A stretch of 64,000 nucleotides of DNA from Candidatus Kerfeldbacteria bacterium (GCA_016182555.1 JACPGJ010000008.1:532753-596752), one strand, 5' to 3'. Positions 6,636 to 23,514 are shown, counted from the stretch's first letter. Made by a program: numbers and translations. Notes: generated by a model not told the origin, from the letters alone.

Positions 6636-9515
<2,880 letters not shown>

Positions 9516-9520
9516 ACAAT

Positions 9521-10387
9521 TTATTCCGTTTTATCAATTGGGTCAATCGAAAAAAGAACAAAATCTACTAGATCAAGTGCACTTGGTACCCACTTCATCT
9601 GTGCCGTCATGACTCGTTGTGATGTATTGCTTGTTCCACGCACACCAACCGTAATCACGGATGGAATATCAATCACCTCTCCGCCCCCATCATTATCGCG
9701 ATAGAACTCCACATGCATAGCAGCTAAATCGCAATCCAATGGTTTTACACGAATAACATAATTTTTTGTTTCATCTGGCCAATTGGATACACTACCACAT
9801 TGATATGGATTTCCAACGGCACTATCACAATTCAACATTTGCGTATTGATGACATCGTTAGACGTTCCTAATGTGTACTCATCAAAAGCGTCAAAGGTCA
9901 CCTCTATTCGCGATTGACCCGTATCTGGACACGCGTTTTCATTCCACTGGAATCGCACAGATTGGGCCAATATCGTTTGGAAAGGATCATCCGGGTCATA
10001 CAAATCAATTTCGAGAGAGCGATTCATCTGTACAGGTGAATCAATGCTGCTGACTGTTCGTTGCGTTATTGTTTCATCCATGGCAAAGGTTGCACCGCCC
10101 TGAGATAATGTGCGCTCGGGTGTACTAGACAACATATCCAACACATCGGCGATATCTCTATCTTGCTTACGTTGCGTGCTTACCACATGTAGCTCATATT
10201 CCAAACCGCTTTCTGCCGCATAATAACTCTTTAGTGAATCAGAAAATAACCGAGCGGTGCTGACCTCGCGGTAAATAATAGAAGCCAGTGCAAAACCGAT
10301 GGTCATCATCATAGCCACAATCAATAAAGCAAAAAGCATAACGGCTCCATCTTCTGCGGTGATATGCATAGTTCGTTTATCGGACAT
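9521..10387 (-). CDS. PilX-like type IV pilus assembly protein / minor pilin
   Basis: N-terminal hydrophobic helix followed by an ...AAESGLE segment resembling the PilX N-domain; it is the last gene of the minor-pilin cluster. Confidence 0.55.
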   Translation of the reverse strand: MSDKRTMHITAEDGAVMLFALLIVAMMMTIGFALASIIYREVSTARLFSDSLKSYYAAESGLEYELHVVSTQRKQDRDIADVLDMLSSTPERTLSQGGATFAMDETITQRTVSSIDSPVQMNRSLEIDLYDPDDPFQTILAQSVRFQWNENACPDTGQSRIEVTFDAFDEYTLGTSNDVINTQMLNCDSAVGNPYQCGSVSNWPDETKNYVIRVKPLDCDLAAMHVEFYRDNDGGGEVIDIPSVITVGVRGTSNTSQRVMTAQMKWVPSALDLVDFVLFSIDPIDKTE

Positions 10388-10973
10388 AATAGCGTGGGGT
10401 AAATACCGTTTGTATCAAGGCAGTCTTTGTTGTGGCATAGTCAACGCTCAATTGCATCGTGACGGTAATAGTTGGAACCAGGTCGGGTGTAGAATTACCA
10501 TCTGGATCAGTTTCATACGGTGAACGCGCTGGGTAGATATAAAATTTCCCCACAACAAAATGAATATGATCACCATTCATTTGAGACCATTCATCGGCCG
10601 TATTCGGATCACATGATTCTTCAATGGTTTCTACACGACACAAGAATAAATTCGTGATCCCCTCCTCTGTACGAAACCAAAATACCTGCTGCACGCCTTT
10701 TCGTGTGCGGAGCGCCAGAAACTCTGGTTGTTCAAATGGATCTCCGGTATAAAAATCATAATCCAGCGTACCTTCTTTCACTCGTTCGCTCATCGATGAT
10801 AATACCGATCGACTCTCCGCTTGCATTGTTAACATATTGCGCGATTCTTTTTGACCCCGGAAAAAAATTAACAACAATGTGGTGGCAACAACAATCACAA
10901 TACTGGCAACTGCCGTGGCGACCAAAATTTCCACCAAGGTAAAACCACGGTGTGTGTTAATATTTCCAGTCAT
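10377..10973 (-). CDS. prepilin-type minor pilin
   Basis: Class III signal: MTGNINTHRG|FTLVEILVA with Glu5. Start set at that Met; the ORF extends to 11036. Confidence 0.75.
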   Translation of the reverse strand: MTGNINTHRGFTLVEILVATAVASIVIVVATTLLLIFFRGQKESRNMLTMQAESRSVLSSMSERVKEGTLDYDFYTGDPFEQPEFLALRTRKGVQQVFWFRTEEGITNLFLCRVETIEESCDPNTADEWSQMNGDHIHFVVGKFYIYPARSPYETDPDGNSTPDLVPTITVTMQLSVDYATTKTALIQTVFTPRYYVR

Positions 10974-11700
10974 AGAGATATTCTTCCAAGATATAATTTT
11001 CTGTTTCATCACCCACCGGCCATTGCACCGCCACAATCACATCCAAACCAATTTCTTGCAAACCATACTCTTCACAAGAAAAATCTTCATTGTTGATAAT
11101 TACCTCTCCTGCTGGCATGGTCGTATCGCTACTGACGTTTTCTATTTCACCACAAATAGGATATAACGTGATCAACCGCGAAAACATGGTTGGTTGAAAA
11201 TATTCCGGTTCAAATATCTCATCGCCCGACTGCACATACATCGTGATATTTGGGTCGTACCAAATTTTTGAACAATCATATTCCCCTGCGGATTTTGAGT
11301 AACACTGAGAGCCGAAATCGTCTGGTGCAAAATGTAATTCATACGCGGTTCCTGAATACCCAACAGTCGATGTAGGCACAGCCGTACGGTCACGGTTGTC
11401 TCCCTCTAATCCTGCAGTCCAGCTTATAGCGGATTGCGAATCATACCCCAACCAATTAGCATCACGAATACTACGCACAATTTCTATGCCTTCACGTGCA
11501 AAATTTGCTGCTAAAAACTGATTATTCATTTTTCGTGCCGCTAAAATAGATGTCGTGCTCAACAAAATCAAGCTGAGCACCCCTATGGCAATAATACCAA
11601 CAGCGACTATGGTTTCCAGTAAGGTAAACCCAGCCGCTGCCCGAGGGGTGGACGTGCATTGAGCAGGTGCAGCTGGATGTGAATGAAAAAAAATATACAT
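10957..11700 (-). CDS. prepilin-type minor pilin / pseudopilin
   Basis: AAAG|FTLLETIVAVGIIAIG prepilin cleavage/methylation motif. The 24-aa leader is unusually long, so the true start may be an internal non-ATG codon. Confidence 0.7.
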   Translation of the reverse strand: MYIFFHSHPAAPAQCTSTPRAAAGFTLLETIVAVGIIAIGVLSLILLSTTSILAARKMNNQFLAANFAREGIEIVRSIRDANWLGYDSQSAISWTAGLEGDNRDRTAVPTSTVGYSGTAYELHFAPDDFGSQCYSKSAGEYDCSKIWYDPNITMYVQSGDEIFEPEYFQPTMFSRLITLYPICGEIENVSSDTTMPAGEVIINNEDFSCEEYGLQEIGLDVIVAVQWPVGDETENYILEEYLYDWKY

Positions 11701-11713
11701 AAGGCGTGTACGC

Positions 11714-12283
11714 TTATTCCGTCAATTGCCCGGTCGTGCGATGCAGAGTAATGGTTTCTATATGTTGGCTCTTCAAATGTTTGATCACGATATCCAAGTC
11801 ATTATTTTGAGCAGCATTCACAAAAATAATACCATTGCTTCTGGTGATGAATAGATCACACAAGGGTGGATTTCCTTCTTGGTTGATTTCTGGGGTACAA
11901 CTCTCAATAACCATATTACTCAATAATTCATCTTCTTCAAAACTCACGGTCTTTACTACCGCATCATCTGGTTCTTTTGTATATTGATTATCCGCATTCA
12001 GATCAGCATAAATCGTATACGTATCAGTACCAGGATAGAGAACGAGCCCATAGCCATGTGGCACCGTACCCGTCGTTGATTCTCTTTTTCCACTTTGCGC
12101 CCAACTCATGGTCGTACGAATATCTTCTATCAAAATCGACTGAGCACTCCGTAAAATATTCGGGTTATTTGAGCCGGCAAATTGAAAAATAACCAACGAG
12201 GAAAGCAAACCAATAATCGCGATAACAATCAATAATTCGATAATCGTAAACCCCGCACGAAAGCGAGTGCCGTGTGTGCTCAT
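11714..12283 (-). CDS. prepilin-type minor pilin
   Basis: MSTHGTRFRAG|FTIIELLIVIAIIGLL. Its ATG (12281-12283) overlaps the pilD stop as ATGA; the 100-aa upstream extension of the ORF overlaps pilD and is rejected. Confidence 0.75.
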   Translation of the reverse strand: MSTHGTRFRAGFTIIELLIVIAIIGLLSSLVIFQFAGSNNPNILRSAQSILIEDIRTTMSWAQSGKRESTTGTVPHGYGLVLYPGTDTYTIYADLNADNQYTKEPDDAVVKTVSFEEDELLSNMVIESCTPEINQEGNPPLCDLFITRSNGIIFVNAAQNNDLDIVIKHLKSQHIETITLHRTTGQLTE

Positions 12284-13068
12284 ATCAGAAGATGCATATA
12301 CCAATCGATCAATGCATCTCCCCACCACAAACAGAACAGCGTAGCAACAGCAAGAAATGTGCCAAATGGAATGCGTGTATCTCGGCGTACACGACGAATA
12401 GCAAGGAGAAGAAGAGAAACAACTGCGCCACCGATATACGCAATAAAGAGTGCTGCAATGGTTTTCTGAAAACCAAGCATCGCGCCCATCAATACACCAA
12501 AACGAATATCTCCCGCGCCAATCCACCGCCCACGAGAAATAAGATATTGCAAGAGAAAAAAACCGCCCGCGACTACTGCGCCCCACACCATATTCATCAT
12601 CGTGTAATCCAATACGACACCCGAAGCCAACACCGCCACCACTATACCCGGAATCATCACGCGATCTGGCAATAGCTGATACTTCAAATCATAGATAAAC
12701 AAAAATAATAGAATGGCACCATAGCCAGTAACCACAAAAGCGGCAGGATTCAATGGCCCCATCATCAGAGCCGTAGCGATAAACAGTATTGCACCAATAC
12801 ATTCTACCAATGGATATTGCCAGGAAATCGGTTGAGCACAATACCGACAACGCCCGCGCAACACGATAAAAGAATACACAGGAATCAGATCACGTGCAGC
12901 GAGAGTCGCTTGACACTGTGGGCAACGGCTCCGTGCCGCACCGCCGTGGGTGTTGCGAATATTGGATTCACCTCGGTGCAAACGAAATTCCAGTGCGTTG
13001 ATAAAACTTCCAACACACAACCCAATACAGAAATAGAGAGGGAGAACCAAATAATCATTGAACATCAT
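12280..13068 (-). CDS. pilD: prepilin peptidase (A24 family)
   Basis: 262 aa polytopic protein with an N-terminal Cys-rich box (CPQC...CRYC) and two conserved catalytic-Asp regions (GGAVV..D, GAGDIRFG). Confidence 0.9.
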   Translation of the reverse strand: MMFNDYLVLPLYFCIGLCVGSFINALEFRLHRGESNIRNTHGGAARSRCPQCQATLAARDLIPVYSFIVLRGRCRYCAQPISWQYPLVECIGAILFIATALMMGPLNPAAFVVTGYGAILLFLFIYDLKYQLLPDRVMIPGIVVAVLASGVVLDYTMMNMVWGAVVAGGFFLLQYLISRGRWIGAGDIRFGVLMGAMLGFQKTIAALFIAYIGGAVVSLLLLAIRRVRRDTRIPFGTFLAVATLFCLWWGDALIDWYMHLLI

Positions 13069-13084
13069 ATACGCTATAGTATAT

Positions 13085-13125
13085 CAAAAAGCCCCCGCAT
13101 ATGCAGGGGCTTCTTTTTGATAGGT
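13085..13125 (-). terminator. rho-independent terminator after pilA (could act bidirectionally)
   Basis: aaaaaGCCCCCGCATATGCAGGGGCttcttttt: a 9-bp GC-rich stem with one mismatch, flanked by an A-run and a T-run, located between the pilA stop (13130) and the pilD start (13068). Confidence 0.6.
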
Positions 13126-13129
13126 GAAC

Positions 13130-13639
13130 TTAGCTGCCAGAAGCGTTACCAGAGAGACAATAGACTGCGGCATCACAATTCAATGTGGCGTCAACACCAT
13201 CATAAGTATCGGTTGAGGTCACAGACATCCAGCCTGCACCGCCTTGAGCTGCATCAATATCTTGTTCTAATGCTTTGTGGGCTGTATCTTCTAATGTGGC
13301 TCCAATAACATACTGATCCGTATTATTCGTCAAGTAAACATACGCATCACCATTTGAATCATTCGGATCAAGCGGCAGAATATCGTTCACATAGGTCTTC
13401 ATCTTGGTTTGTAATTCTACCCAAGTATCTGTACCATCGCTGAGTACAGGATAGATTGCTTTATCGTTATAGTACAATTCAAAAGCCGTTTGCAATGAAC
13501 GCATGTCCGATACACGTTTGGTATCTCGAGCGCGTTGCTGAGCAGAAGTGAGGGAAACAATAGCGAGTGTTGCTAATAAACCAATAATCGCGATAACGAT
13601 TAACAGTTCGATCAGCGTAAACCCTTTTTGGTTTTTCAT
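13130..13639 (-). CDS. pilA: major type IV pilin
   Basis: MKNQKG|FTLIELLIVIAIIGLLA prepilin motif; short (about 165 aa mature); C-terminal Cys pair forming a D-region; followed by a strong terminator. Confidence 0.85.
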   Translation of the reverse strand: MKNQKGFTLIELLIVIAIIGLLATLAIVSLTSAQQRARDTKRVSDMRSLQTAFELYYNDKAIYPVLSDGTDTWVELQTKMKTYVNDILPLDPNDSNGDAYVYLTNNTDQYVIGATLEDTAHKALEQDIDAAQGGAGWMSVTSTDTYDGVDATLNCDAAVYCLSGNASGS

Positions 13640-13673
13640 GGTTGTGCACATGGATTAATAATTTATTATCTTT

Positions 13674-13702
13674 ATATTAACATATTTTTAAGCGCGAGGC
13701 AA
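13674..13702 (-). promoter_or_regulatory. candidate sigma-70-type promoter for pilA
   Basis: Minus strand reads TTGCCT, a 17-nt spacer, then TAATAT, about 35 nt upstream of the pilA ATG. Confidence 0.35.
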
Positions 13703-13736
13703 GGAGAAAGTCGATCAGTTGTCCCCACACCCCAAA

Positions 13737-14969
13737 CTAAAATTGAGCAGTAATCGCGTAAATAGGCATCAAAATACCTAATACCAACACCAAAATACCC
13801 GCTCCTAAGAGAATAATAATCACTGGTTCAATTAAACTCACCAATGCACCGGTTAAACTATTCACCTCTCCCGTATAAAAATCAGCGACTTTAGTAAGAA
13901 TTTGATCCAATCTTCCCGTTTCCTCGCCCACATTCATCATTTGCGTCATCATCGGTGGGATATATTTGCTTTTTCCTAAAGCGGACGAGAGCGAGTGACC
14001 GGCTTCCACATCTTTTCGGACTTGAAGCAAAATCTGTTTATAGGTAGCATTACCCACAATATCACTAATAATTTCAATAGAACGATTCACGGGCACACCG
14101 GCAGCAAGGAGATTGGCCATACTTCTGCTCATACGCGCCAAATAAATTTTGCGGAAAATATTTCCAATAACGGGAATATGCAACAACCCTCGATCTAAAA
14201 AATATTGCCCCTGTGGACGAGAGCGCAGCACGGTATACACGACGATCAAAATGACAACGAAAGATAACAGCACCCACCAATACTGCTGAAAGGCTGTACT
14301 GACGGTAATCAATGCACGCGTAGCCCAAGGTAATTGCGCACCGGAGGAAGCCACCACATCCAATAATTTCGGTAGCACATAAATCATCATAAAAATAAAA
14401 ATTCCTACCAACACAACAACAATAAACGCTGGATAGATCAACGCACTAATCATACGAGATACCAATGCGTAATCTTTTTCTTTTTGATCAGCCAAATACG
14501 TCAGTACATCATCTAATTGCCCAGTGGTTTCTCCGGCGCGAATCATATACACAAAAAAATCATCGAAAATATGGCTATGCCGATGCAACGATGAAGATAG
14601 GCGCGCCCCTCCGTCTACTTCATTGGCAACATCGGTGATTACTCGGCGCAGTACCGGCGACTCTGTTTGCTTAGCAAGAATTCGCAACGCACGAACAATC
14701 GGCACCGTGGCGGAAATAAGCACCGCCAGCTGCCGAGAAAAAACCACCACATCTTTTGTTTTTACACGTTCGGTCAACCGTTTCCAATTAAATCCAATAC
14801 GCCGCGTCCCTTGTTCTTGTAAAAAAATAACGATCAAATTTTTTTCACGCAGCATTTCTTGGGCCACGGTGAGCGATGGAGCATCAAGCTCCCCTTCTAT
14901 CGAACGTCCAGCCTGGTCTTTTGCTTGATAGGTAAATTGTGGCATAGAAGAACAGTGACGAATAATCAA
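13737..14969 (-). CDS. pilC: type IV pilus platform protein (GspF family)
   Basis: Two GspF-type repeats with three TM segments; alternative start at 14945 (MPQFTYQ...). Confidence 0.9.
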   Translation of the reverse strand: MIIRHCSSMPQFTYQAKDQAGRSIEGELDAPSLTVAQEMLREKNLIVIFLQEQGTRRIGFNWKRLTERVKTKDVVVFSRQLAVLISATVPIVRALRILAKQTESPVLRRVITDVANEVDGGARLSSSLHRHSHIFDDFFVYMIRAGETTGQLDDVLTYLADQKEKDYALVSRMISALIYPAFIVVVLVGIFIFMMIYVLPKLLDVVASSGAQLPWATRALITVSTAFQQYWWVLLSFVVILIVVYTVLRSRPQGQYFLDRGLLHIPVIGNIFRKIYLARMSRSMANLLAAGVPVNRSIEIISDIVGNATYKQILLQVRKDVEAGHSLSSALGKSKYIPPMMTQMMNVGEETGRLDQILTKVADFYTGEVNSLTGALVSLIEPVIIILLGAGILVLVLGILMPIYAITAQF

Positions 14970-16073
14970 TTAGCGAAAAAGCGCCGGGTTTTGTGCAAAA
15001 TGCATAGCCACATCACGACTCACAATTCCCCGAGAAACGGCCTCTGCGAGGGCAATATCCAAACTACGTATTCCTGGCTCACGAGAAGTATAGAGAATAT
15101 TGTTCAATTGCAACAGGTCACCTTTTTGAATAATAGTGCGAATCGATTCGTTTGGTATCATCACCTCGGCAATCATGGCTCGATCTCCACTGACGGTATT
15201 CACGCGACGCTGATTAATAACCCCAACGAGTGTATGGGCAAGCATCATGCGTATTTGCTGTTGTTCGATATCTGTAAACCGATAAATAATATCACTCAAT
15301 ACGCCCACAATAGCACTGGCAATGGCGGGAACAAATACGGTCTTCCCTGCAGCTGCCAAAGAGAGAGCAGCGGTATACGCTTGCGGTGAATCTAAGGCCG
15401 AGAGCATAACCACATCGACATCTTCTTGCGCAACAAATTGTAATGCAGATTCCACACTTGCCACATCTTTGCCCACTTCACGTTGTTCAATGACGCAGCG
15501 CTGATCGTTAAAGAGAAATTCTACGGGCTGTTCAATAGTGACGATATGCTTGGCCGCGGTTTGATTCAAATAATCCACAAAACTGGCTAGGGTTGTTGAT
15601 TGTTCAGCATTCGCTGTGCCAATAACCAATACCAACCCGGCAGAGACGGTCGCTAACTGTTGTGCAGCAGCCGGCAATCCCAAAGCATTCAATGGTGGTG
15701 GGGCTAGTGGAATAAGCGTGAGCGCAGCGGAGAGATGCCCTTGCTGGTAAAACACCGCAATTTTAAATCGTTTTTTATTTTCTAATGATTTAGCTACAGT
15801 GATTTGTTTCTCGCGCTGCAAACGTTCTTGCTCTGCTGGGTCTAACCAAGAGATCACGACTTCCTGTACAAAACTGGGCGTTAACACATTTTGCTCTGGC
15901 AATGCGACCAACTGTTCGTTCACCCGAATCATCGGTGGGTTGCCCACAGACAAATGCAATACCGTAGCATGATAGGTTTCAGCCAGAGACAATATTTTCT
16001 GTATCGTAAATTGGTCAGCAGTATTCATATCTGTTGCATCATTATTCTGCGCCCACGGTCCAAACTTCTTCAA
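14970..16073 (-). CDS. PilT-like hexameric ATPase paralogue with degenerate catalytic motifs (predicted pseudo-ATPase)
   Basis: Overall PilT-like fold (HLSVGNPPMIRV; ...STTL...IVTIEQPVEF...). Four motifs substituted relative to canonical PilT-family ATPases: Walker A GPTGSGKST becomes GTANAEQST, Asp-box D becomes Q, Walker B GE becomes SA, His-box H becomes K. The neighbouring PilB retains all of them. Confidence 0.8.
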   Translation of the reverse strand: MKKFGPWAQNNDATDMNTADQFTIQKILSLAETYHATVLHLSVGNPPMIRVNEQLVALPEQNVLTPSFVQEVVISWLDPAEQERLQREKQITVAKSLENKKRFKIAVFYQQGHLSAALTLIPLAPPPLNALGLPAAAQQLATVSAGLVLVIGTANAEQSTTLASFVDYLNQTAAKHIVTIEQPVEFLFNDQRCVIEQREVGKDVASVESALQFVAQEDVDVVMLSALDSPQAYTAALSLAAAGKTVFVPAIASAIVGVLSDIIYRFTDIEQQQIRMMLAHTLVGVINQRRVNTVSGDRAMIAEVMIPNESIRTIIQKGDLLQLNNILYTSREPGIRSLDIALAEAVSRGIVSRDVAMHFAQNPALFR

Positions 16074-17790
16074 TAGATGTTAAGCCCCGCAATGCGGCCA
16101 ATAATCCATTTTGTTTAATCGTCACCATGCCTTGATGACGCAATTCTTCTTCCACCACTGCTGGCGTGTGAATATCACCGGCAGCAATAATAGCCCGTAA
16201 CCGATCAGTCACTTCTACCGTCTCCGCCACGGCTAAACGGCCTTTGTACCCTGTATCTTCGCAGTGCTGACACCCTTTTCCTTTAAATACCTTCAACGGC
16301 GGTTGTAAGACGATGCCTTTTGGAAGTGAAGATTTCGGTATACGTTCCAACTCAGCCAAAATTTGCGATTCTAATAATGGCGGAACAATTTCTGGTACCA
16401 AACACTCCATGCAATTGCGCCGAACCAGGCGTTGAGCGATCACCAGGTTCAATGCGGAAGAGATTAAAAATGGTTCAATACCCATATCAATTAAACGCGG
16501 GATTGCACCAATCGCATCATTGGTATGTAATGTGCTCAACAACATATGTCCAGTGAGCGCTGCATGAATCGCCAATTCAGCCGTTTCATTATCGCGAATT
16601 TCTCCTACCATAATAATATCTGGATCTTGGCGCAAAATAGAGCGTAATCCACGTACAAAGGTCAACCCAATTTCTGGCCGTACTTGTGACTGTGCAATCC
16701 CGGTCATGTGGTATTCGACCGGATCTTCTAGCGTAATAATATTGCGTTCTTCGTTATTGAGAATTTGCAACATCGAATAGAGTGTGGTGGATTTACCAGA
16801 ACCCGTGGGACCAGTCATGAGAATCATGCCATGCGGACGTTGGAGGTGTTCATGAATGACACTCAAGTTGCGGTCAGCGAACCCGAGGTCTTCTAAGGTC
16901 TGCAATCCAGATTCTTGATCTAAAATACGCAACACCACTTTTTCATGGTCAATCAACGGCATGGTAGACACACGAAAATCGATCTGCCGCCCATCAATTT
17001 TCATACGAAAACGGCCATCTTGTGGCAGGCGTGTTTCATCTAATTTTAAATTGGCTAACACTTTAATACGTGCCACTAAGGAATTGTGCACATTTTTTGG
17101 TAACTGCAATGACGTGTGCAAAATACCATCCACACGATATCGCACACGCGTGCCATCATCGTGGGGTTCAATATGCACGTCTGATGCGCTGCCTTCCACG
17201 GCGTAACGTAAAATAACCGCCACCATTTTTGAAACCGGTGCATTTTTTACCGATGGATCGGCGTCTGCTAATTCTTCTGCTTCATCTTGCAATACATCAA
17301 CAAGATCTGTGTTTTGTTCCTTTAACGCTTGCGCCACCTCTTTGGTTAAATTTGCATACTGATGCAGCACCGCACGGAAACTTGATTCAGAAGTCAAAAA
17401 ATATTTAATTTGAAGATGATCTTTGCGTGCAATAAAATCAAGCGCTTCAATCGCTTTATAATCTTGCGGGTCCACCATGGCCACAGATAACTCACTTCCG
17501 TTTCTGGCCCACGGCACGACACGATAATTCTCCGCAATATCTGGCGTGAACGCATTCAATATTTCGCTGGGAATATCTTGGTCCAGTAATGAAATATAGG
17601 GTACACGCAACACCATCGCTTTCACTTGCGTAAGCTCCTCTTCATTCACGATATGTTCTTGCACCAATACCGTTAACAAATCAACGCCAGTACGTTGAGA
17701 TTCTATTTGCGCTTGTGTAAGCTGTGCAGGAGTAATGAGTTGGCGCGCCTGCAATTGCTGAACAATGGTCATGATATCTGCAAGTTTCAT
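16042..17790 (-). CDS. pilB: type IV pilus assembly ATPase (GspE family)
   Basis: 582 aa with an N-terminal GspII/MshEN-like domain, intact Walker A GPTGSGKST, Asp box, Walker B DIIMVGEIRD, His box and a tetracysteine CxxC...CxxC motif. Confidence 0.92.
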   Translation of the reverse strand: MKLADIMTIVQQLQARQLITPAQLTQAQIESQRTGVDLLTVLVQEHIVNEEELTQVKAMVLRVPYISLLDQDIPSEILNAFTPDIAENYRVVPWARNGSELSVAMVDPQDYKAIEALDFIARKDHLQIKYFLTSESSFRAVLHQYANLTKEVAQALKEQNTDLVDVLQDEAEELADADPSVKNAPVSKMVAVILRYAVEGSASDVHIEPHDDGTRVRYRVDGILHTSLQLPKNVHNSLVARIKVLANLKLDETRLPQDGRFRMKIDGRQIDFRVSTMPLIDHEKVVLRILDQESGLQTLEDLGFADRNLSVIHEHLQRPHGMILMTGPTGSGKSTTLYSMLQILNNEERNIITLEDPVEYHMTGIAQSQVRPEIGLTFVRGLRSILRQDPDIIMVGEIRDNETAELAIHAALTGHMLLSTLHTNDAIGAIPRLIDMGIEPFLISSALNLVIAQRLVRRNCMECLVPEIVPPLLESQILAELERIPKSSLPKGIVLQPPLKVFKGKGCQHCEDTGYKGRLAVAETVEVTDRLRAIIAAGDIHTPAVVEEELRHQGMVTIKQNGLLAALRGLTSIEEVWTVGAE

Positions 17791-18710
17791 GGTGTCGTGT
17801 TCGTTACCGGTAACAATACAGGGATTGGCGTAAATGGTTCTGTATTGCCAGGAATAGGCATAGAAAACGCATCACTCGATGGATTACCAGAAGCATCCAC
17901 TGCAACCAACGTATAATAATAATGCGCATTTGGTACAGCAGAGGTGTCTGTGAATGCTGGTATCTCACTCTGTTTGACCGTAGCAATTTGTTCACCACGA
18001 ATACCATACGTAGTTGAACGGAAAATATTCAGATGATCAAAATCAACAACCGTCGGATTCACCCATTGTATATGAACACCATATTGATTATCGCTCTGTG
18101 TCGATGTAATGATAATGTCCGTGGGAGCCAATGGTGGAATGGTATCCGCCGGTATAACACTAACGGTTGGCGCTGTATCACTGGTGTACTCTATTTCGTT
18201 AAACGTATTCACTGAAACAACACGATACGTGTAGGTCTGAGCGTTATCCAGCCCGGTATCCAGAAATGATTCTTCGATAATATGTGTCGCAACTAACTCA
18301 TCGGCGGTCGGTATATTTGCATGAGTTGTACTGCGGTAAATGTTGACGGACTCAACACCATCTGGGCGGGTCCAAAACAACACGGCTTCTCCTCCAATGC
18401 GGGTATTGAACGCCGTGAGGTGTGTAACCGGCGCAGGATGCTGTGAGTGTAAAAATGTTGCTTCTACTTGAGGCTGGGTCTGTGGCACAGCATGCACATC
18501 TAATGCCAACACTTGTTCATGTAACAATGTGTCTGTTGGAAAATCACTCACCACTCGACCAGTTGTTGTATCTTCACTGGTGATTAACCCAAATGCTGAT
18601 TGATTATATCGAGTGGTATAGATCGCCAGACCAGCTAATACCAAAATGAGAGAGATCAATGTCCATTCTTTTGCGGTGAACGATGGTAGCCAATGACGTT
18701 TGTGGTTCAT
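17787..18710 (-). CDS. membrane-anchored protein with two fibronectin type III-like domains (pilus-locus component)
   Basis: N-terminal TM helix; two FN3-like signatures (YTYRVVSVN, YYYTLVAVDASGNPS); stop overlaps the pilB start. Confidence 0.6.
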   Translation of the reverse strand: MNHKRHWLPSFTAKEWTLISLILVLAGLAIYTTRYNQSAFGLITSEDTTTGRVVSDFPTDTLLHEQVLALDVHAVPQTQPQVEATFLHSQHPAPVTHLTAFNTRIGGEAVLFWTRPDGVESVNIYRSTTHANIPTADELVATHIIEESFLDTGLDNAQTYTYRVVSVNTFNEIEYTSDTAPTVSVIPADTIPPLAPTDIIITSTQSDNQYGVHIQWVNPTVVDFDHLNIFRSTTYGIRGEQIATVKQSEIPAFTDTSAVPNAHYYYTLVAVDASGNPSSDAFSMPIPGNTEPFTPIPVLLPVTNTTP

Positions 18711-19396
18711 AAAGATGAAGGCGTGGAAGGTGATTTTCGATAATACGTTTCTAACTGTACAGCAAAACTACTGGAGGACGGTGAATAACTCAGGTTGCGT
18801 AGATCAAGCAAGGGAGTAGATGATTGTAACAGATTCAAAAAATCTTTTAGTGCATCGTATGAACCAGTCGCGCTCTCAATATTCAAGGTAATTACCGCTC
18901 GACCAATGCTTGTTGGAAGAGTGGTAATCGCTGCGGCATCGGTATTCCCAGATGTATTTGCGTTTGCATTCGTTGCGCTACTAGCCGACTCCACCACATC
19001 AACGCTCAGCACGTGCATAGAAGCCGCGTCTGCTAACCGTTGCAAATGAGCCATTGTTGCGGTTGCATCTATCCCTTCTGGTAACACCACATTCATTTGT
19101 TGTAGGCGCTCCGTATCTACCGCTGCATACGCATCATTCATCTGTTTCAATTGATCCAAATATTGTTGGCGTTGATTCCGTTCTTCCATTGCTGCTTGTT
19201 GCCCAATGAAACCACGTTCTTGCAAATGTTCATACTGTTGCCGCAAAAATGTGAACCAACCAATGGCACACAACAGGAGTATTTCCATGCATACTAACAA
19301 GCGATAGTGACGATGAATAAATGGATAGCGCACAACAATTTTTGAATTATTCTCCGGCATAGGCAGTTGGGGTTGATTGAAATAATGATGGCGCAA
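18707..19396 (-). CDS. pilO: PilO-like inner-membrane pilus alignment protein
   Basis: Single TM, then a coiled-coil segment and a C-terminal globular region; located between pilN and pilB. Confidence 0.55.
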   Translation of the reverse strand: MRHHYFNQPQLPMPENNSKIVVRYPFIHRHYRLLVCMEILLLCAIGWFTFLRQQYEHLQERGFIGQQAAMEERNQRQQYLDQLKQMNDAYAAVDTERLQQMNVVLPEGIDATATMAHLQRLADAASMHVLSVDVVESASSATNANANTSGNTDAAAITTLPTSIGRAVITLNIESATGSYDALKDFLNLLQSSTPLLDLRNLSYSPSSSSFAVQLETYYRKSPSTPSSL

Positions 19397-20501
19397 ACTG
19401 AACAGTCATGCTAGAACGCACATTCTGCTGCTTGTGCTGCGTGTCATCGGATGTTGTATCTGCTTTTGTGGCTGTTGTGCCTTCGCCGGCGTCTGTTGCT
19501 GAAGTGACTTCTACTTCTTCGACCATAGGAGAATGACGAAATACATTGACTTGCGCTTCTAACTGTTCATAATCTGGAGCGATGACATCAAAAACAAAAC
19601 GACCAGACGTCGCAGAACCGGAGAGCGATTCATAATAAATGGTAGGAAAAGTCAGCTCTTCTACAGTTGAAAAAAATGGCGTCCAATACACATGCGCATC
19701 GAGCACCGTTGCTAAATCTTCTAGCTGTGAATGCAGTGTTCGTGCACTATTAGCTACTGGAATGAACCCCGCAATTTGATTGTTTATATGATCAATATCT
19801 TGATGAATTTGCAGCGTATTTGTAAGTACACGATGTTCGTAAATGTTTAACCCAGCAACAGTAGAAAGCATCAGGCCAATAACCACAATCGCTATATAAA
19901 GAAAATCGTGCATACTATGCGCGCCGTTGCCGTTAGATGAACCGTGTGTGTCATGTGGGATAAGATTAACTCCAAAATTGATAATACGGTCAACTGGAAA
20001 TTGCTGTTTTGCGTGACGATTTTTTCTTTGCCGTTTCGCATGAGGGCCCTGCTGCGCTGGCATTTCCTGCGGTAAAGGATGTGGCGCCGCCTTCGGTATC
20101 TCGGGCAATGGCGGCAAGGATGATGGAGTAGCCAGTGCCGCATGGAGTAAATCTGTTTCTGCTTCTTCTTTCCTGTGCTTTGGCGCAAGGTGAACCATAG
20201 CTGGTACGGGCGAAGACACAGCTGGGGTGGGTTTAATTGCAGCGGATAACGACGGAAGAGCGACAGGTCGTTGTTGGGGTTGAAGTTGGGGTTGTGCTGG
20301 TGTGTTGGGGTGTTTCTTCCTTCTCCACAACAAAAATGACCGTTTTTCGCTTGGTGCGTTCAACGGATGAACAGGAGAAGATATTGGCGCATTCATTTTC
20401 TCGCCGCTGGTATACTCAATAGCACCTCGATCACCACTGGTTGAATGAGGATGTGTTTTTCCCTTTCTGGAACCAGAAGAAAGAAAATCGATATCTCCCA
20501 T
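19347..20501 (-). CDS. pilN: PilN-like protein with a long Pro/Gln-rich N-terminal extension
   Basis: Conserved PilM-binding-like INLIP motif immediately before the single TM (FLYIAIVVIGLMLSTVAGL), preceded by about 190 aa of low-complexity P/Q-rich sequence. Confidence 0.6.
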   Translation of the reverse strand: MGDIDFLSSGSRKGKTHPHSTSGDRGAIEYTSGEKMNAPISSPVHPLNAPSEKRSFLLWRRKKHPNTPAQPQLQPQQRPVALPSLSAAIKPTPAVSSPVPAMVHLAPKHRKEEAETDLLHAALATPSSLPPLPEIPKAAPHPLPQEMPAQQGPHAKRQRKNRHAKQQFPVDRIINFGVNLIPHDTHGSSNGNGAHSMHDFLYIAIVVIGLMLSTVAGLNIYEHRVLTNTLQIHQDIDHINNQIAGFIPVANSARTLHSQLEDLATVLDAHVYWTPFFSTVEELTFPTIYYESLSGSATSGRFVFDVIAPDYEQLEAQVNVFRHSPMVEEVEVTSATDAGEGTTATKADTTSDDTQHKQQNVRSSMTVQFAPSLFQSTPTAYAGE

Positions 20502-20503
20502 AG

Positions 20504-21745
20504 TTAACTAATTTCTCGCATTGCAAGACCAGTGGCAACCGCGAGTCGAGGTCCAATTGTTTGTAAAATCGGTTTCAAATCGACAGGGTACATTACACGC
20601 GCCCAAGGATCACCAATATATACTTTCATATTCAATACTTGGTGGAGATATTGGGTAATATTCGGCAACCACGCAGACCCACCAGCGAGAATAATCTTTT
20701 CAATTCCCAAGTTGCCTTGGTTTTGATACAGATTCAAGACATATTTAATCTCATTGATGATGGACGCGACCATAAATTCAATCCGTTTCGGTATTTGACC
20801 ACCACTACCAGAGTCTGCCGCTTGCTGTGCAAGGCCAAAATCGCGTTTGAATTGTTCAGCGCGCTCCATATCAATGTTTAAACTATTCGCAATTGCTTTG
20901 GTAATGGTACGACCACCAATATCAATGCTGCGGTTAATTAACGGAACAGAATCAACAACAACGCTAATCGTTGTCGCAACGGCACCGATATCAATAATCA
21001 TAATTGGCGACTTATCGTTGCCAATAAGCGAACGTTCCAACGCAAAACTTTCTGTTTCCAAGCTTACTAAATTCAGTTTCGCTTCTTTAAAAATTTCGAC
21101 ATAGCGCGTAACCAAATTTTTGGGTGCAGCCGTGAGTAAAATCTTCAAAAATTTCTTTTTCTCTTTAGACGTAATAGTGGCGGGTTGTTGTGCTCCAGCG
21201 CCGCCAGACAGAGTATTCGGGTAAGCTTGCGGCATTCCTGGTTGTTGCACTGGCATACCAGGCATTTGGTTCATGCCGGCCATCGGTTGGCCTGGCGTCA
21301 TGTTGGTTGCTGGGCTTATTCCAACGCTCGGATTTGCAGAAAACTGAGTAGAAATATCGCTATCAGCAAGAATTTTCCAATCCAGAATCATTTCTTCTAA
21401 TGGCATCGGTACAAACTTTTTGGCTTCCCATTGCACCGCTGCAGTAAGCTCTTTTTTGGACATCTCCGGCAGGTGAATGATGGAGGTAAATACCGTATAA
21501 CTCGGAAGCGCAGCAATCGCATTTGTGGATGTCGTTCGTGCAGCTTCTCGTACACGCTGCAAAGCGGAGATAATTGCTTCACGCGTTTCTTTACTATCGG
21601 ATGTGAGAATTTTATTTTCTTGCTCTAGGTAACCGTACGTTAATAACTTTGGGCGACCTTTATCATTTTGTAATTCCACCACTTTCAGGGCTGAATTAGC
21701 AATATCAACACCTAAGTAACTTTCATTTGATCCAAACAATGACAT
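20504..21745 (-). CDS. pilM: actin-like ATPase-fold pilus protein
   Basis: PilM/FtsA-like N-terminus (LGVDIANSALKVVEL) with an inserted Met/Pro/Gln/Gly-rich linker. Confidence 0.85.
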   Translation of the reverse strand: MSLFGSNESYLGVDIANSALKVVELQNDKGRPKLLTYGYLEQENKILTSDSKETREAIISALQRVREAARTTSTNAIAALPSYTVFTSIIHLPEMSKKELTAAVQWEAKKFVPMPLEEMILDWKILADSDISTQFSANPSVGISPATNMTPGQPMAGMNQMPGMPVQQPGMPQAYPNTLSGGAGAQQPATITSKEKKKFLKILLTAAPKNLVTRYVEIFKEAKLNLVSLETESFALERSLIGNDKSPIMIIDIGAVATTISVVVDSVPLINRSIDIGGRTITKAIANSLNIDMERAEQFKRDFGLAQQAADSGSGGQIPKRIEFMVASIINEIKYVLNLYQNQGNLGIEKIILAGGSAWLPNITQYLHQVLNMKVYIGDPWARVMYPVDLKPILQTIGPRLAVATGLAMREIS

Positions 21746-21825
21746 ACAATAATGAAAAGTGATGAGTAAATTATTCTTCTGTTATATTATAACATCTTTT
21801 GAATACCAGAGCAAGAATTATTGCC

Positions 21826-23514
21826 TTATTGCCCGTTTTCAAAAATCGGCAGCGTCGAAGCGAAATCGCGAAGGCCCGGTGGGGTGTTCACCAATACACG
21901 ACCGTCGTAATATATGAACTCAGCTGGTTGGTCATCCCCGATTACTCCTTTATATGTACGCTGAAAATGAAATCCTTGTCCCATCATCAACCCATAAACA
22001 ACGAGCTGTGATGCGGAAGCGGGTTCTGTAGTGACCATGCCATTATTCACCACCCCATCACTTTGATCGGCATCACCAATAACGAAAAAAGAACCCACCA
22101 ACTGCGACACATTGGGCCCGATCGTCAGATTACCGCGAACAATCCAAGCAACAGAAGCCAAATTACTCACATCAACCAATGACGATTGTTCGTAAAAAAG
22201 ATTCGCATCAATTTCCAAGTTACCGTTAATCACAAACACGCCGGAACCGTCATAGTCTTTTCCGGTAGAGGAAAGCGCCGTGCCATTCAAAAACGTCATG
22301 GCATGATCAATAATCACGGTCGTATCTGTGGGTTCGTTCGCGTCGCCCAAAACATACACCTGTCCATCTAAAAATAAATTGCTCTCCAAATCATCAATAG
22401 TATCTAGGGTGGATACCTGGTCGTTGTACGCATTTTTATCGCGCTCATCCGTGGTGAGCAGTTTATCAAAATCTAACCGACCCAATTCACTACGATATTC
22501 ATTTTCACTGTTCGGCAAATTCAACGCACCATAGGTTCCAAGAGTACCATCCTCACCGACAGCGGTCGTAAAATTCACAAATTCACTTTCACCCGTGTCC
22601 GCATTGCCGACAATGAGAAACGTAGCGTTGTATTGCGTTGGAGATAAATCTCCATTCGGGTTGATAATACCACCAGCGGCATAAACGTCACCATTGATTG
22701 TCGACAGATAAGGATCATTCGGGTTTGATTCACTCGTACTCGGGAAAAAATTCATCCAACCCAACCCAACCGTTGGGTCATAACTTCCGCTGGGCACGGT
22801 TCCTCCACCCGAAAATACCCACCCGGAAAAGGAATTATTTGTATACAACAAACCAAATTCTTGATTATCTGCAGCATTTGTTCCTCGTAATAATACCCAG
22901 CCCCAATCATTATTCTTGTTGCTCGTGCCGAGAATCGTATCACCATAGGCAGCCAATGTTTCTAAACGTGCCCAACCCGAAATTTCTTTTTTATTGACGG
23001 TATCTACTTCAGCAGCGTGGCACGGTGGTGCCGGATATATGGAACCTGCTGGGCAATTTACCGTATCACCATAAGTGCTGCTATCTGGTAATGGATTTGG
23101 GTGAAAATTCAGCCAACCGGTGGATGCTGGCGGTGCTGAAGCACAAATTCCTTGACACGCAACGGCATCTGCGGCTCCTAACCACGCCCAGCCAGAAATA
23201 TACCCTGTATCGGTATCCACGTTCACTTTTGGGTAATTGCCTAAGCTACTATCACATGAATTATCGCTCGCACAATCGAGATGAATAAATCCAATAGCGG
23301 AATAATCAGAAGTACCGGTCGTCGTGTTCTGGTCAGCTGGTAGGCCAATCCATGCCCACGCACTAAATTCATCATACACTTGTTGGGCAGAAGCGCTGTC
23401 ATACGGAACGACAGTGACAACAAAAAATAACAATACAGCGAGTAAAAAATATTGTATGCGTATACGCGATATCAGCATATGCGTCATCATACGAAAAAAG
23501 GGAGGCCGTGGCAA
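21826..23514 (-). CDS. secreted protein with about seven spaced (S)GW(A/V)(W/F) repeats, directly upstream of pilM
   Basis: Signal peptide (several candidate Met starts). Repeats: FSAWAWIG, ISGWAWLG, STGWLNF, ISGWARL, DWGWVLL, FSGWVFSG, GLGWMNF. No recognisable enzyme motif. Confidence 0.6.
   Translation of the reverse strand: MPRPPFFRMMTHMLISRIRIQYFLLAVLLFFVVTVVPYDSASAQQVYDEFSAWAWIGLPADQNTTTGTSDYSAIGFIHLDCASDNSCDSSLGNYPKVNVDTDTGYISGWAWLGAADAVACQGICASAPPASTGWLNFHPNPLPDSSTYGDTVNCPAGSIYPAPPCHAAEVDTVNKKEISGWARLETLAAYGDTILGTSNKNNDWGWVLLRGTNAADNQEFGLLYTNNSFSGWVFSGGGTVPSGSYDPTVGLGWMNFFPSTSESNPNDPYLSTINGDVYAAGGIINPNGDLSPTQYNATFLIVGNADTGESEFVNFTTAVGEDGTLGTYGALNLPNSENEYRSELGRLDFDKLLTTDERDKNAYNDQVSTLDTIDDLESNLFLDGQVYVLGDANEPTDTTVIIDHAMTFLNGTALSSTGKDYDGSGVFVINGNLEIDANLFYEQSSLVDVSNLASVAWIVRGNLTIGPNVSQLVGSFFVIGDADQSDGVVNNGMVTTEPASASQLVVYGLMMGQGFHFQRTYKGVIGDDQPAEFIYYDGRVLVNTPPGLRDFASTLPIFENGQ

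What the first reader, a model, noticed from the sequence alone, without database searches (positions are those of the whole stretch)
9521..23514. Complete 12-gene type IV pilus locus in one transcriptional direction, with a non-canonical component set and no secretin
The gene order on the minus strand is: SGW-repeat secreted protein, pilM, pilN, pilO, FN3 membrane protein, pilB, pseudo-PilT, pilC, pilA, terminator, pilD, minor pilin x3, pilX-like. No pilQ-type secretin or pilP is present. A bona fide PilT retraction ATPase is also absent from the locus. Absence of a secretin is consistent with a monoderm-like envelope; instead an FN3 membrane protein sits where pilP/pilQ would be. pilD and the first minor pilin overlap as ATGA, indicating translational coupling. 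A strong hairpin between pilA and pilD suggests high pilA expression with attenuated read-through. This is a compact, probably complete machine with at least three lineage-specific parts.
Basis: partly seen in the sequence, partly recalled or inferred. Interest (0 to 1): 0.55.

Follow-up and report, generated by a model that had tools for sequence, protein, structure and literature searches.

The report
CPR pilus locus with dead PilT
This is the standard secretin-less type IV pilus gene cluster of an ultra-small Patescibacteria (Kerfeldbacteria) cell, ordinary for that group except that its pilus-retraction motor gene has lost every catalytic residue yet is kept intact across related species.

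Summary
Window 9521-23514 carries 14 (not 12) co-directional minus-strand genes: a GW-repeat secreted protein, pilM, pilN-like, pilO-like, a membrane-anchored tandem-FN3 protein, pilB, a PilT homologue without catalytic motifs, pilC, pilA, a strong hairpin, pilD, three minor pilins and a PilX-like protein. The 64 kb window holds no secretin, PilP or second PilB/PilT-type ATPase.

The source is a Candidatus Kerfeldbacteria MAG (Patescibacteria/CPR). Co-localised pilus genes without PilQ are already described for this group, so the locus as a whole is a new member of a known kind. The same 14-gene order with the same flanks recurs in three other Kerfeldbacteria-type contigs.

The distinctive part is the pseudo-PilT. 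It aligns end to end with solved PilT but lacks the Walker A lysine, the Walker B glutamate and both His-box histidines. It belongs to a monophyletic Patescibacteria clade of degenerate PilT-like proteins. It sits in the pilB-pilT-pilC slot that holds a canonical PilT in 17 other CPR loci, and it is about as conserved as pilC or pilD.

Conserved -10-like elements suggest four co-directional transcription units, not one. Whether an active PilT lies elsewhere in the genome could not be tested.

The parts
21826..23478 (-). GW-repeat secreted protein with a C-terminal beta-solenoid-like domain (550 aa from the ATG at 23478; the mechanical ORF runs to the TTG at 23514)
   Evidence: It is identical to P0121. 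It has 36 homologues with no Pfam domain, and all named ones are Patescibacteria. Seven invariant GW positions are seen in 30 homologues. The model has pLDDT 75. The best PDB match is the DUF3494 beta-solenoid at E=3.9e-4, followed weakly by the ComZ pilin. The C-terminal ~320 aa match the 1373-aa protein upstream of pilM in L004 at E=2e-27. The N-terminus looks like a Sec signal peptide (ASA-QQ), read from the sequence.
23486..23493 (-). -10-like element CGTATGAT, 8 nt before the ATG of the first gene (with TTGCCA as a -35, 17-nt spacer)
   Evidence: The promoter scan scores it 10/12. The same CGTATGAT is found before the orthologue in L001. Function is inferred.
21786..21794 (-). Extended -10-like TGTTATAAT in the 80-nt gap upstream of pilM
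   Evidence: The identical ATGTTATAAT is present in the orthologous gap of L001 and L002, although the rest of the gap differs.
20504..21745 (-). pilM (actin-like ATPase fold), with a ~65-aa low-complexity insertion
   Evidence: PF11104 1.3e-44 in two stretches. TIGR01175 185 bits against a cut-off of 133. It is 77% identical to the L001 orthologue.
19347..20501 (-). pilN-like bitopic protein with a ~170-aa Pro/Gln-rich N-terminal extension, a VNLIP motif and one TM helix
   Evidence: It has no Pfam or NCBIfam hit. It matches the positional counterpart in L004 at E=7e-19, including VNL[IM]P. The motif is at residue 178.
18707..19360 (-). pilO-like bitopic protein
   Evidence: It has no direct family hit. 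It matches L004:6745-7428 at E=4e-20 over the full length, and that protein passes Pfam PilO (28.4 bits against 22).
17787..18710 (-). Membrane-anchored tandem-FN3 protein, with ATGA overlaps to both pilO and pilB
   Evidence: The AF2 model shows a TM helix at 13-35 and two FN3 domains (pLDDT 75-92 over residues ~92-280). The Foldseek top hits are tandem FnIII structures at E=3.5e-9. Orthologues hit PF25833. The overlaps are shown.
16042..17790 (-). pilB extension ATPase with canonical motifs
   Evidence: T2SSE 2.2e-128 plus MshEN. The best NCBIfam match is type_IV_pilB (553 bits, below its cut-off of 675.65). GPTGSGKS, EDPVE, GEIRD, GHMLLSTLH, CMEC and CQHC are all present.
14970..16028 (-). 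Pseudo-PilT: a full-length PilT homologue lacking the Walker A Lys, Walker B Glu, Asp-box Asp and both His-box His residues
   Evidence: It equals P0001 (HYV32_06630, annotated 'hypothetical'). The motifs are tabulated. TIGR01420 aligns over positions 2-341 of 343 at 255.9 bits, below the cut-off of 319.1. It aligns almost without gaps to A. aeolicus PilT 2ewv at E=1.9e-56. It is 54% identical to its orthologues, similar to pilC.
13737..14945 (-). pilC platform protein (the mechanical ORF starts at the TTG at 14969)
   Evidence: T2SSF 1.7e-60 in two stretches. It matches GspF and PilC models in NCBIfam, below their cut-offs.
13674..13682 (-). Extended -10-like TGTTAATAT in the AT-rich gap upstream of pilA
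   Evidence: TGGTACAAT (L001) and TGGTATAAT (L002) sit at the corresponding place.
13130..13639 (-). pilA major prepilin (MKNQKG|FTLIELL)
   Evidence: N_methyl 8e-11 plus T2SSG. TIGR02532 36.7 bits against a cut-off of 16.3. It is one of only four prepilin motifs in the window.
13086..13113 (-). Intrinsic-terminator-like hairpin (stem-loop 13091-13110) flanked by an A tract and a U tract
   Evidence: -24.3 kcal/mol, z=-4.84, none of 200 shuffles as good. Equivalent hairpins with different stem sequences are found in L001 (-27.1) and L002 (-30.0).
13078..13086 (-). Extended -10-like TGATATACT, about 10 nt before the pilD ATG (a possible leaderless or short-leader promoter)
   Evidence: The same TGATATACT is found in L002, and GGTATAAT in L001, directly before pilD. 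Function is inferred.
12280..13068 (-). pilD prepilin peptidase
   Evidence: A24_N_bact 2.7e-26 plus Peptidase_A24 2.8e-13.
11714..12283 (-). Minor pilin 1 (…RAG|FTIIELL), whose start overlaps the pilD stop as ATGA
   Evidence: N_methyl. The overlap is shown.
10957..11700 (-). Minor pilin 2 (…AAG|FTLLETI)
   Evidence: N_methyl. The motif is shown.
10377..10973 (-). Minor pilin 3 (…HRG|FTLVEIL)
   Evidence: N_methyl 6e-7. The motif is shown.
9521..10387 (-). PilX/GspK-like last gene: a hydrophobic N-terminal helix without Glu5
   Evidence: Only a weak PilX_N hit (E=0.1). It is conserved in position in L001, L002 and L090. The assignment is an inference from position and the N-terminus.

Best explanation
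The region is the chromosomal type IV pilus (T4aP-like) gene cluster of a Candidatus Kerfeldbacteria cell, built for an envelope without an outer membrane.

Shown by homology:
- PilD processes four prepilins.
- PilB has all its catalytic motifs and would power assembly on the PilC platform.
- PilM, a PilN-like protein and a PilO-like protein form the membrane alignment module.
- Three minor pilins and a Glu5-less PilX-like protein are encoded after pilD.

Inferred:
- The minor pilins and the PilX-like protein prime the fibre.
- The membrane-anchored tandem-FN3 protein is translationally coupled to both pilO and pilB. It probably extends the alignment module outward through the wall.
- The Sec-secreted GW-repeat/beta-solenoid protein is an accessory surface or tip factor. 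It pairs a variable N-terminal part with a conserved C-terminal domain, a layout I recall for PilY1.

The gene in the PilT slot descends from PilT and has kept the fold. It has lost the residues needed to bind and hydrolyse ATP.

Most likely mechanism (inferred): it still assembles and docks on the PilC/PilM base, where it acts as a non-catalytic gate or placeholder that competes with PilB. The fibre is therefore long-lived. It would retract, if at all, only passively or through PilB.

Expression appears to run from about four co-directional units: the GW gene, pilM to pilC, pilA with its own promoter and terminator, and pilD to pilX.
For: - Family assignments.
- Source organism: (HYV32_06630, Candidatus Kerfeldbacteria; contig 598,550 bp).
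- Synteny: the same 14-gene order and the same flanks (ychF/methyltransferase on one side, metallophosphoesterase/ligA/gatCA on the other) recur in L001, L002 and L090.
- Literature: CPR pili co-localise and lack PilQ (PMC6744442).
- Dead motifs. Their essentiality in PilT is stated in PMC5065972.
- Fold retention.
- Slot occupancy: 22 CPR loci each hold one PilT-family gene, canonical in 17 and degenerate in 5, never both within +-10 kb, and 21 also hold one PilB. Canonical PilT sits in pilB-pilT-pilC in L006 and L007.
- Phylogeny: the degenerate clade is monophyletic, and so is the subclade without the Walker A lysine.
- Conservation: 54% identity to orthologues, against pilC 59%, pilD 48-53% and pilN 36%.
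- Accessory proteins: FN3 structure and overlaps; GW protein family and fold.
- Transcription signals: hairpin and -10 elements conserved across loci.
- Ecology: Kerfeldbacteria were unusually enriched in the >2.5 um, host-attached size fraction (PMC7906910). That fits a stable, non-retracting tether.
Against: - Only 64 kb of a 598-kb contig was visible, plus ~10 kb beyond the low-coordinate end on a shorter contig that carries the same ndk gene. An active PilT elsewhere is not excluded.
- Some members of the degenerate clade (L089, probably L008) lie away from pilB, next to a second pilM. The clade could therefore have begun as a paralogue.
- No experiment shows that the protein fails to bind nucleotide, forms hexamers or docks on the machine.
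- The roles proposed for the FN3 and GW proteins rest on position, coupling and weak fold matches (TM-scores 0.2-0.45 for the GW protein).
- The promoters are consensus-like motifs conserved in only three loci.
- The link to host attachment is a correlation at lineage level.
Confidence: 0.7

Rival explanations
1. An active PilT is encoded elsewhere in the genome. The dead PilT would then be an accessory partner or regulator of that motor, comparable to a PilT-dependent paralogue such as PilU, and the pilus would be fully retractile.
For: Degenerate-clade members in L089 and L008 lie outside a pilB-pilC context, so some genomes may hold two PilT-family genes. Only about a tenth of the contig was inspected. 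PilT paralogues that depend on PilT are known (PMC6762196, listed).
Against: In the window, L001, L002, L004, L009, L088 and L090 the degenerate gene is the only PilT-family gene in the locus. It sits exactly where canonical PilT sits in 17 other CPR loci. CPR genomes are small (this contig is 0.6 Mb). No second T2SSE protein is found in 64 kb, nor in ~10 kb beyond the low-coordinate end as read on a shorter contig that carries the same ndk gene.
Confidence: 0.3
2. The PilT-like gene is a decaying relic with no function. The pilus has simply lost retraction, as in loci that lack pilT altogether.
For: Every catalytic motif is gone, and the window copy is the most degenerate of 45 clade members. 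NCBI annotates it as hypothetical. Saccharibacteria T4P-2 works without a PilT (PMC11623550).
Against: The ORF is intact and full-length in every relative, aligns to solved PilT almost without gaps, and has 23 invariant columns across 44 sequences. Its identity to orthologues equals that of pilC, pilD and pilA. The clade spans at least ~50 clusters at 50% identity. A relic would have been deleted from a 0.6-Mb streamlined genome.
Confidence: 0.05
3. The machine is mainly a DNA-uptake (competence) or secretion pseudopilus, not an adhesion or motility pilus.
For: CPR pili have been linked to competence (PMC6744442). PilA and PilC score best against the T2SS GspG and GspF models, below their cut-offs. 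The GW protein weakly resembles the DNA-uptake pilin ComZ. In L089 a clade member sits next to dprA.
Against: PilM/N/O and a PilT-family gene are T4aP features, not T2SS or Com features. No comEC or comEA was seen in the window. As I recall, DNA uptake by pili is thought to need retraction, which the dead PilT argues against. This rival is not exclusive of the main reading.
Confidence: 0.2
4. The protein is still an ATPase that uses non-canonical residues.
For: The two Asp-box glutamates, QRE and ED at the start of Walker B are invariant in the clade. Many clade members keep a P-loop with Arg in place of Lys.
Against: The window protein has neither a P-loop glycine pattern nor a basic residue at the Lys position (GTANAEQSTT). 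It has no Walker B Glu (SALDS) and no His-box His. Each of these is reported as essential for PilT activity (PMC5065972).
Confidence: 0.05

Closest known systems
Type IV pilus loci of CPR/Patescibacteria as described by Meheust et al. 2019 (PMC6744442), and T4P-1 of Nanosynbacter lyticus TM7x (PMC11623550)
   Same: pilB, a pilT-family gene, pilC, pilM, pilN, pilO, pilD and several divergent pilins are co-localised. There is no PilQ. The last 'PilX' type protein lacks a prepilin signal.
   Different: TM7x PilT is reported to have well-conserved Walker A and B boxes. Here every catalytic motif is lost. The FN3 protein between pilO and pilB, and the GW/beta-solenoid protein upstream of pilM, did not appear in the passages of those papers I retrieved by term search.
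T4P-2 of TM7x (a pilus system without a retraction ATPase; PMC11623550)
   Same: A CPR pilus that apparently works without ATP-driven retraction and contributes to host association.
   Different: T4P-2 simply lacks a pilT gene. This locus keeps a conserved but dead PilT, which implies a non-catalytic role.
PilT/PilU family (TIGR01420; structures 2ewv, 3jvv, 6ojx)
   Same: Full-length homology (positions 2-341 of 343), the same domain layout and an almost gapless alignment.
   Different: It scores below the family cut-off (255.9 against 319.1). It has no Walker A Lys, Walker B Glu, GEMRD Arg or His-box His.
T4aP of monoderm bacteria (Clostridium, Streptococcus sanguinis) - from my own knowledge
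   Same: No secretin or PilP. PilM/N/O are present with PilB, PilC, PilD and PilT.
   Different: As I recall, those systems carry an active PilT. The accessory proteins differ.
PilY1 and ComZ, the large accessory or tip proteins of T4P (ComZ structure 6qvi)
   Same: A large protein encoded with the machine. The GW protein's conserved C-terminal domain and variable N-terminal region (550 to 1396 aa) echo the layout I recall for PilY1. Its beta-solenoid-like fold weakly resembles ComZ.
   Different: There is no sequence homology. The fold match is weak (TM 0.2-0.25). Unlike ComZ, it has no prepilin N-terminus.

Membership tests
Type IVa pilus machine | PilB-type extension ATPase with intact motifs | tested here: met
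   T2SSE 2e-128. The best NCBIfam model is type_IV_pilB, below its equivalog cut-off. All four motifs and the tetracysteine are present.
Type IVa pilus machine | PilC platform, PilD peptidase and a major pilin with a class III signal | tested here: met
Type IVa pilus machine | PilM-PilN-PilO alignment module | tested here: met
   PilM is above the TIGR01175 cut-off. PilN and PilO are assigned only by transitive homology to L004, whose PilO passes Pfam, and by the VNLIP motif.
Type IVa pilus machine | Catalytically competent PilT retraction ATPase | tested here: not met
   The only PilT-family gene in the window lacks all catalytic residues. The rest of the genome was not visible.
Type IVa pilus machine (diderm form) | PilQ secretin and PilP | tested here: not met
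   Neither is found among the window ORFs. Neither is expected in CPR (PMC6744442).
PilT/PilU family (TIGR01420) | Score above the curated cut-off | tested here: not met
   255.9 bits against 319.1. The intermediate clade member P0020 scores 345 and the canonical P0048 scores 452.
PilT/PilU family (TIGR01420) | Walker A Lys, Asp box, Walker B Glu, His-box His | tested here: not met
   GTANAEQSTT / TIEQPVEF / DVDVVMLSALDS / AAGKTVFVPAIA.
PilT/PilU family (TIGR01420) | Two-domain PilT fold over the full length | tested here: met
   Sequence alignment to 2ewv, residues 9-348 against 15-355, E=1.9e-56. No structure was predicted for this protein.
PilT/PilU family (TIGR01420) | ATP hydrolysis and hexamer formation | not testable with these tools
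   This needs biochemistry.
Fibronectin type III domain proteins | FN3 beta-sandwich fold | tested here: met
   Two domains modelled at pLDDT 75-92. The Foldseek top hits are tandem FnIII structures at E=3.5e-9, probability 1.0. The window protein itself has no Pfam hit, but its orthologues hit PF25833.
Type II secretion system | GspD secretin, GspL/GspM, no PilT | tested here: not met
   No secretin is present. PilM/N/O and a PilT-family gene are present.

The most novel reading that the evidence does not exclude
In Kerfeldbacteria and related Patescibacteria, the only PilT-family subunit of the pilus machine would be a nucleotide-blind pseudo-ATPase kept under purifying selection. It would be a former retraction motor converted into a structural gate. 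The pili would become permanent tethers, or would retract without a dedicated motor. This would underlie the unusually strong host attachment reported for this lineage.
Probability: 0.3. Interest if true: 0.7.

Novelty: new variant of a known kind. Interest (0 to 1): 0.45.

Why it matters
Type IV pili are thought to be the main organ by which ultra-small CPR bacteria find and hold their hosts. Only Saccharibacteria have been studied experimentally, and their PilT is catalytically intact.

A conserved, catalytically dead PilT in the motor slot of another large CPR branch would show that the extension/retraction paradigm does not hold across the radiation. It would also be a natural example of a secretion-superfamily ATPase turned into a pseudoenzyme. 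It gives a concrete, testable candidate for why Kerfeldbacteria stay attached to hosts.

The locus as a whole adds nothing new to the known CPR pilus blueprint.

Tried and rejected
It returned no Kerfeldbacteria genome, so it gave neither the taxonomic spread of the dead variant nor the rest of this genome. It did supply 17 canonical CPR loci for comparison.
- The exhaustive representative search was topped by tandem PilT-PilT fusion proteins whose two domains add up. Only the 77 single-domain hits were used, and that library carries no taxonomy.
- The simple terminator scan did not report the pilA hairpin. Folding did.
- Pfam and NCBIfam gave nothing for the PilN-like, PilO-like, FN3 and GW proteins. 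The PilX-like protein drew only a sub-threshold PilX_N hit (E=0.1). Assignment of all five needed orthologues or structure models.
- The Foldseek result for the GW protein is weak (TM 0.2-0.45). I use it only as 'beta-solenoid-like', not as homology to ice-binding proteins or ComZ.
- dN/dS was not attempted, because orthologues are only ~55% identical and synonymous sites would be saturated.
- The look-up of the protein at the high-coordinate end of the window found no record.
- Literature searches for a pseudo-ATPase or degenerate PilT found nothing relevant in the held library. That is absence in this library only.
- I considered a T2SS reading and a plain pseudogene reading and rejected both (see rivals).

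Full report
**What is there**

Between 9521 and 23514 the minus strand carries 14 consecutive ORFs. In order of transcription they are:

| Coordinates | Gene |
|---|---|
| 21826-23478 | 550-aa protein with no known domain |
| 20504-21745 | pilM |
| 19347-20501 | 384-aa bitopic protein (pilN-like) |
| 18707-19360 | ~217-aa bitopic protein (pilO-like) |
| 17787-18710 | 307-aa bitopic protein (FN3) |
| 16042-17790 | pilB |
| 14970-16028 | PilT-like gene |
| 13737-14945 | pilC |
| 13130-13639 | pilA |
| 12280-13068 | pilD |
| 11714-12283, 10957-11700, 10377-10973 | three prepilins |
| 9521-10387 | 288-aa protein with a hydrophobic N-terminus |

Pfam and NCBIfam identify pilM, pilB, pilC, pilA, pilD and the three minor pilins directly.

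The flanking genes are unrelated to pili. On one side lie a metallophosphoesterase (plus strand) and ligA. On the other lie a methyltransferase (plus strand) and ychF.

A phmmer search of all window ORFs finds no second PilB/PilT-type ATPase. Pfam scans of the other 30 large ORFs find no secretin and no PilP. The only four prepilin cleavage motifs in 64 kb are the four in this locus.

**Source**

The PilT-like protein is 100% identical to HYV32_06630 of a Candidatus Kerfeldbacteria MAG. It sits on a 598,550-bp contig and is annotated 'hypothetical protein'. NCBI places the lineage in the Patescibacteria/Parcubacteria group.

**The unassigned genes**

- *PilO-like protein.* It aligns over its full length (E=4e-20) with the protein in the same position in another Patescibacteria locus, L004. 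That protein passes Pfam PilO.
- *PilN-like protein.* It aligns with its L004 counterpart at E=7e-19. The alignment includes a VNL[IM]P motif, at residue 178 here, which resembles the PilM-binding INLLP motif that I recall for canonical PilN. Unusually, about 170 Pro/Gln-rich residues precede the motif.
- *307-aa protein.* The model shows an N-terminal TM helix followed by two FN3 domains (pLDDT 75-92). It matches tandem FnIII crystal structures at E=3.5e-9, and orthologues hit PF25833. Its start overlaps the pilO stop, and its stop overlaps the pilB start, both as ATGA. It is therefore an integral part of the operon.
- *First gene.* It has a Sec-type signal peptide (read from the sequence) and seven GW motifs that are invariant in 30 homologues. 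It also has a beta-rich C-terminal half. The best structural match of that half is the DUF3494 beta-solenoid (E=3.9e-4), followed by the Thermus pilin ComZ (E=3e-3). Both have low TM-scores.
  - The family has only 36 detectable members and no Pfam domain. All named members are Patescibacteria.
  - The C-terminal ~320 residues recur at the end of a 1373-aa protein in the same position in L004 (E=2e-27). They also recur in a Buchananbacteria locus.
  - So the family pairs a conserved C-terminal domain with a variable N-terminal part, a layout I recall for PilY1-type pilus accessory proteins. This is an analogy, not homology.

**The PilT-like gene**

It matches the PilT/PilU model TIGR01420 from position 2 to 341 of 343, but at 255.9 bits, below the cut-off of 319.1. 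It aligns almost without gaps with Aquifex PilT 2ewv (E=1.9e-56).

The four signature motifs compare as follows:

| Motif | Canonical PilT | Window protein |
|---|---|---|
| Walker A | GPTGSGKSTT | GTANAEQSTT |
| Asp box | TIEDPIEF | TIEQPVEF |
| Walker B | DPDVILVGEMRD | DVDVVMLSALDS |
| His box | ETGHLVLATLHT | AAGKTVFVPAIA |

The Walker A lysine, the Walker B glutamate and the His-box histidines are reported as essential for PilT activity (PMC5065972).

This is not a private lesion. Among the 120 best database hits, 45 form a group in which none keeps the first His-box histidine or the GEMRD arginine. At the Walker A lysine position, 11 keep Lys, 25 have Arg and 9 have Gln. All 45 were recovered from metagenome assemblies, and every one that carries a source name is Patescibacteria.

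In a neighbour-joining tree the 45 are monophyletic, and so are the 17 closest relatives of the window protein, none of which has the lysine. An exhaustive profile search found about 50 further 50%-identity clusters with the same kind of degeneration among the 77 best single-domain representatives. The window copy is the most degenerate of all.

**Is it still a working gene?**

The ORF is full-length in every relative, and 23 columns are invariant across 44 clade members. Identity to the orthologues in L001 and L002 compares as follows:

| Gene | Identity to orthologues |
|---|---|
| pseudo-PilT | 54% |
| pilC | 59% |
| pilD | 48-53% |
| pilA | 54-59% |
| pilN-like | 35-36% |
| pilO-like | 39-40% |
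| FN3 | 40% |
| minor pilins | 31-43% |

This is the signature of a retained, constrained protein, not of a pseudogene.

**Position**

I examined 22 Patescibacteria loci. Each holds exactly one PilT-family gene, and 21 of them also hold exactly one PilB within +-10 kb; L008 shows no PilB. In 17 loci the PilT is canonical (Saccharibacteria, Wolfebacteria, Berkelbacteria, Liptonbacteria, Taylorbacteria and others). In 5 it is degenerate. None has both.

Canonical PilT sits in pilB-pilT-pilC (L006 and L007). That is the slot occupied here.

Two caveats apply. One clade member (L089) lies instead beside a second pilM, near mfd and dprA and far from pilB. L008 has no pilB nearby. So not every member is in the slot, and an origin as a paralogue cannot be excluded.

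**Conservation of the locus**

Three other Kerfeldbacteria-type contigs (L001, L002/L003, L090) have the identical 14-gene order and the same flanking genes out to gatCA.

More distant degenerate-PilT loci (L004, L088) keep the frame: large protein, pilM, pilN, pilO, a variable 'slot' protein, pilB, PilT-like, pilC, pilins. They differ in inserting a response-regulator gene between pilB and the PilT-like gene.

**Transcription signals**

Gene junctions are tight, from 24 nt apart to 17 nt of overlap, except for three gaps.
- *pilA-pilD gap.* It holds a hairpin of -24.3 kcal/mol (z=-4.8) between an A tract and a U tract. L001 and L002 have equivalent hairpins with different stem sequences, which argues for a selected structure.
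- *All three gaps, and the region upstream of the first gene.* Each holds a TGn-TATAAT-like element that is conserved among the three loci while the surrounding sequence is not:
  - TGTTATAAT before pilM;
  - TGTTAATAT / TGGTACAAT / TGGTATAAT before pilA;
  - TGATATACT / GGTATAAT about 7-12 nt before the pilD ATG;
  - CGTATGAT 8 nt before the first gene's ATG.

I infer about four co-directional units. pilA would be a separately promoted and terminated high-expression gene. pilD and the genes after it would not depend solely on read-through. None of this has been tested experimentally.

**Comparison with what is known**

Meheust et al. 2019 reported that PilB, PilT, PilC, PilM, PilN, PilO and PilD co-localise in many CPR genomes and that PilQ is absent, in line with a non-Gram-negative envelope (PMC6744442). 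Grossman et al. described two Saccharibacteria pilus systems. One has a PilT with conserved Walker boxes, and one has no PilT at all (PMC11623550).

So the locus, the missing secretin and the divergent pilins are expected. I found nothing in the held library on a conserved catalytically dead PilT, the FN3 slot protein or the GW/beta-solenoid family. That is not proof that they are undescribed.

He et al. 2021 found Kerfeldbacteria exceptional among CPR lineages in being enriched in the >2.5 um, host-attached fraction (PMC7906910). A pilus that cannot be actively retracted would fit that finding, but this is only a correlation.

**Mechanism and confidence**

- That this is the lineage's T4aP-like pilus machine is well supported (about 0.9).
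- That the PilT-like protein cannot hydrolyse ATP follows from the loss of all four motifs (about 0.85).
- That it retains a non-catalytic role at the base of the machine is inferred from conservation and position (about 0.6).
- That the genome has no active PilT, so the pilus is non-retractile or retracts without a motor, is open (about 0.4-0.5). Only about a tenth of the contig could be read.

**Verdict**

The locus as a whole is an ordinary CPR pilus cluster. The conserved pseudo-PilT and its two co-occurring accessory proteins make it a new variant worth a focused follow-up.

Noticed in passing
window 19347-20501 and 20504-21745: The PilN-like protein has a ~170-residue Pro/Gln/Ala-rich extension in front of its VNLIP motif. 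As I recall, in canonical PilN that motif lies at the extreme N-terminus. PilM carries a ~65-residue low-complexity insertion (PGQPMAGMNQMPGMP...) that splits its Pfam match in two. The long PilN extensions recur in L001, L002 and L004.
   Followed up: partly
L004:9563-9991 and L088:9601-9996; window 1972-2343: In two more distant loci with a degenerate PilT, a single-domain response regulator is inserted between pilB and the PilT-like gene. The window has no such insertion, but an orphan receiver-domain gene lies ~7 kb beyond the locus.
   Followed up: no
L089:10001-12125: One member of the degenerate PilT clade (P0041, with an intact Walker A Lys) is paired with a second pilM next to pth, mfd, dprA and topA, away from any pilB. 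This may be a separate two-gene module, or a hint that the clade began as a paralogue.
   Followed up: partly
window 9521-23514, all 14 start codons: No Shine-Dalgarno-like purine run precedes any of the 14 starts. Two genes (the first gene and pilD) have a -10-like box only 7-12 nt upstream of the ATG, which suggests leaderless or very short-leader mRNAs.
   Followed up: partly
P0162-P0168: The top hits of the exhaustive search are 700-1000-aa proteins made of two tandem PilT domains. In the four read in full (P0162-P0165) the motifs are canonical or nearly so. These would be covalent PilT-PilT fusions, and their origin was not examined.
   Followed up: no
window 28197-29732 (+): A 511-aa sigma-70/ECF-type protein has region 2 once but three separate stretches matching region 4. 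This is an unusual repeat of the -35-binding domain.
   Followed up: no
window 35656-42381: A low-GC stretch (0.38) carries two DUF4143/AAA_14 ATPases and an AbiEii-type toxin. It may be a defence or mobile island.
   Followed up: no
window 4288-6612 (+) and 58625-59992 (+): Two other predicted surface proteins are present: a 774-aa protein with bacterial Ig-like domains next to ligA, and a 455-aa FG-GAP repeat protein. Both could bear on host contact.
   Followed up: no
window 6636-8909 (-): The mechanical ligA ORF (757 aa) is ~90 aa longer than its orthologues (664-673 aa) and overlaps the oppositely oriented metallophosphoesterase gene by ~275 nt. The true start is probably further downstream.
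   Followed up: no
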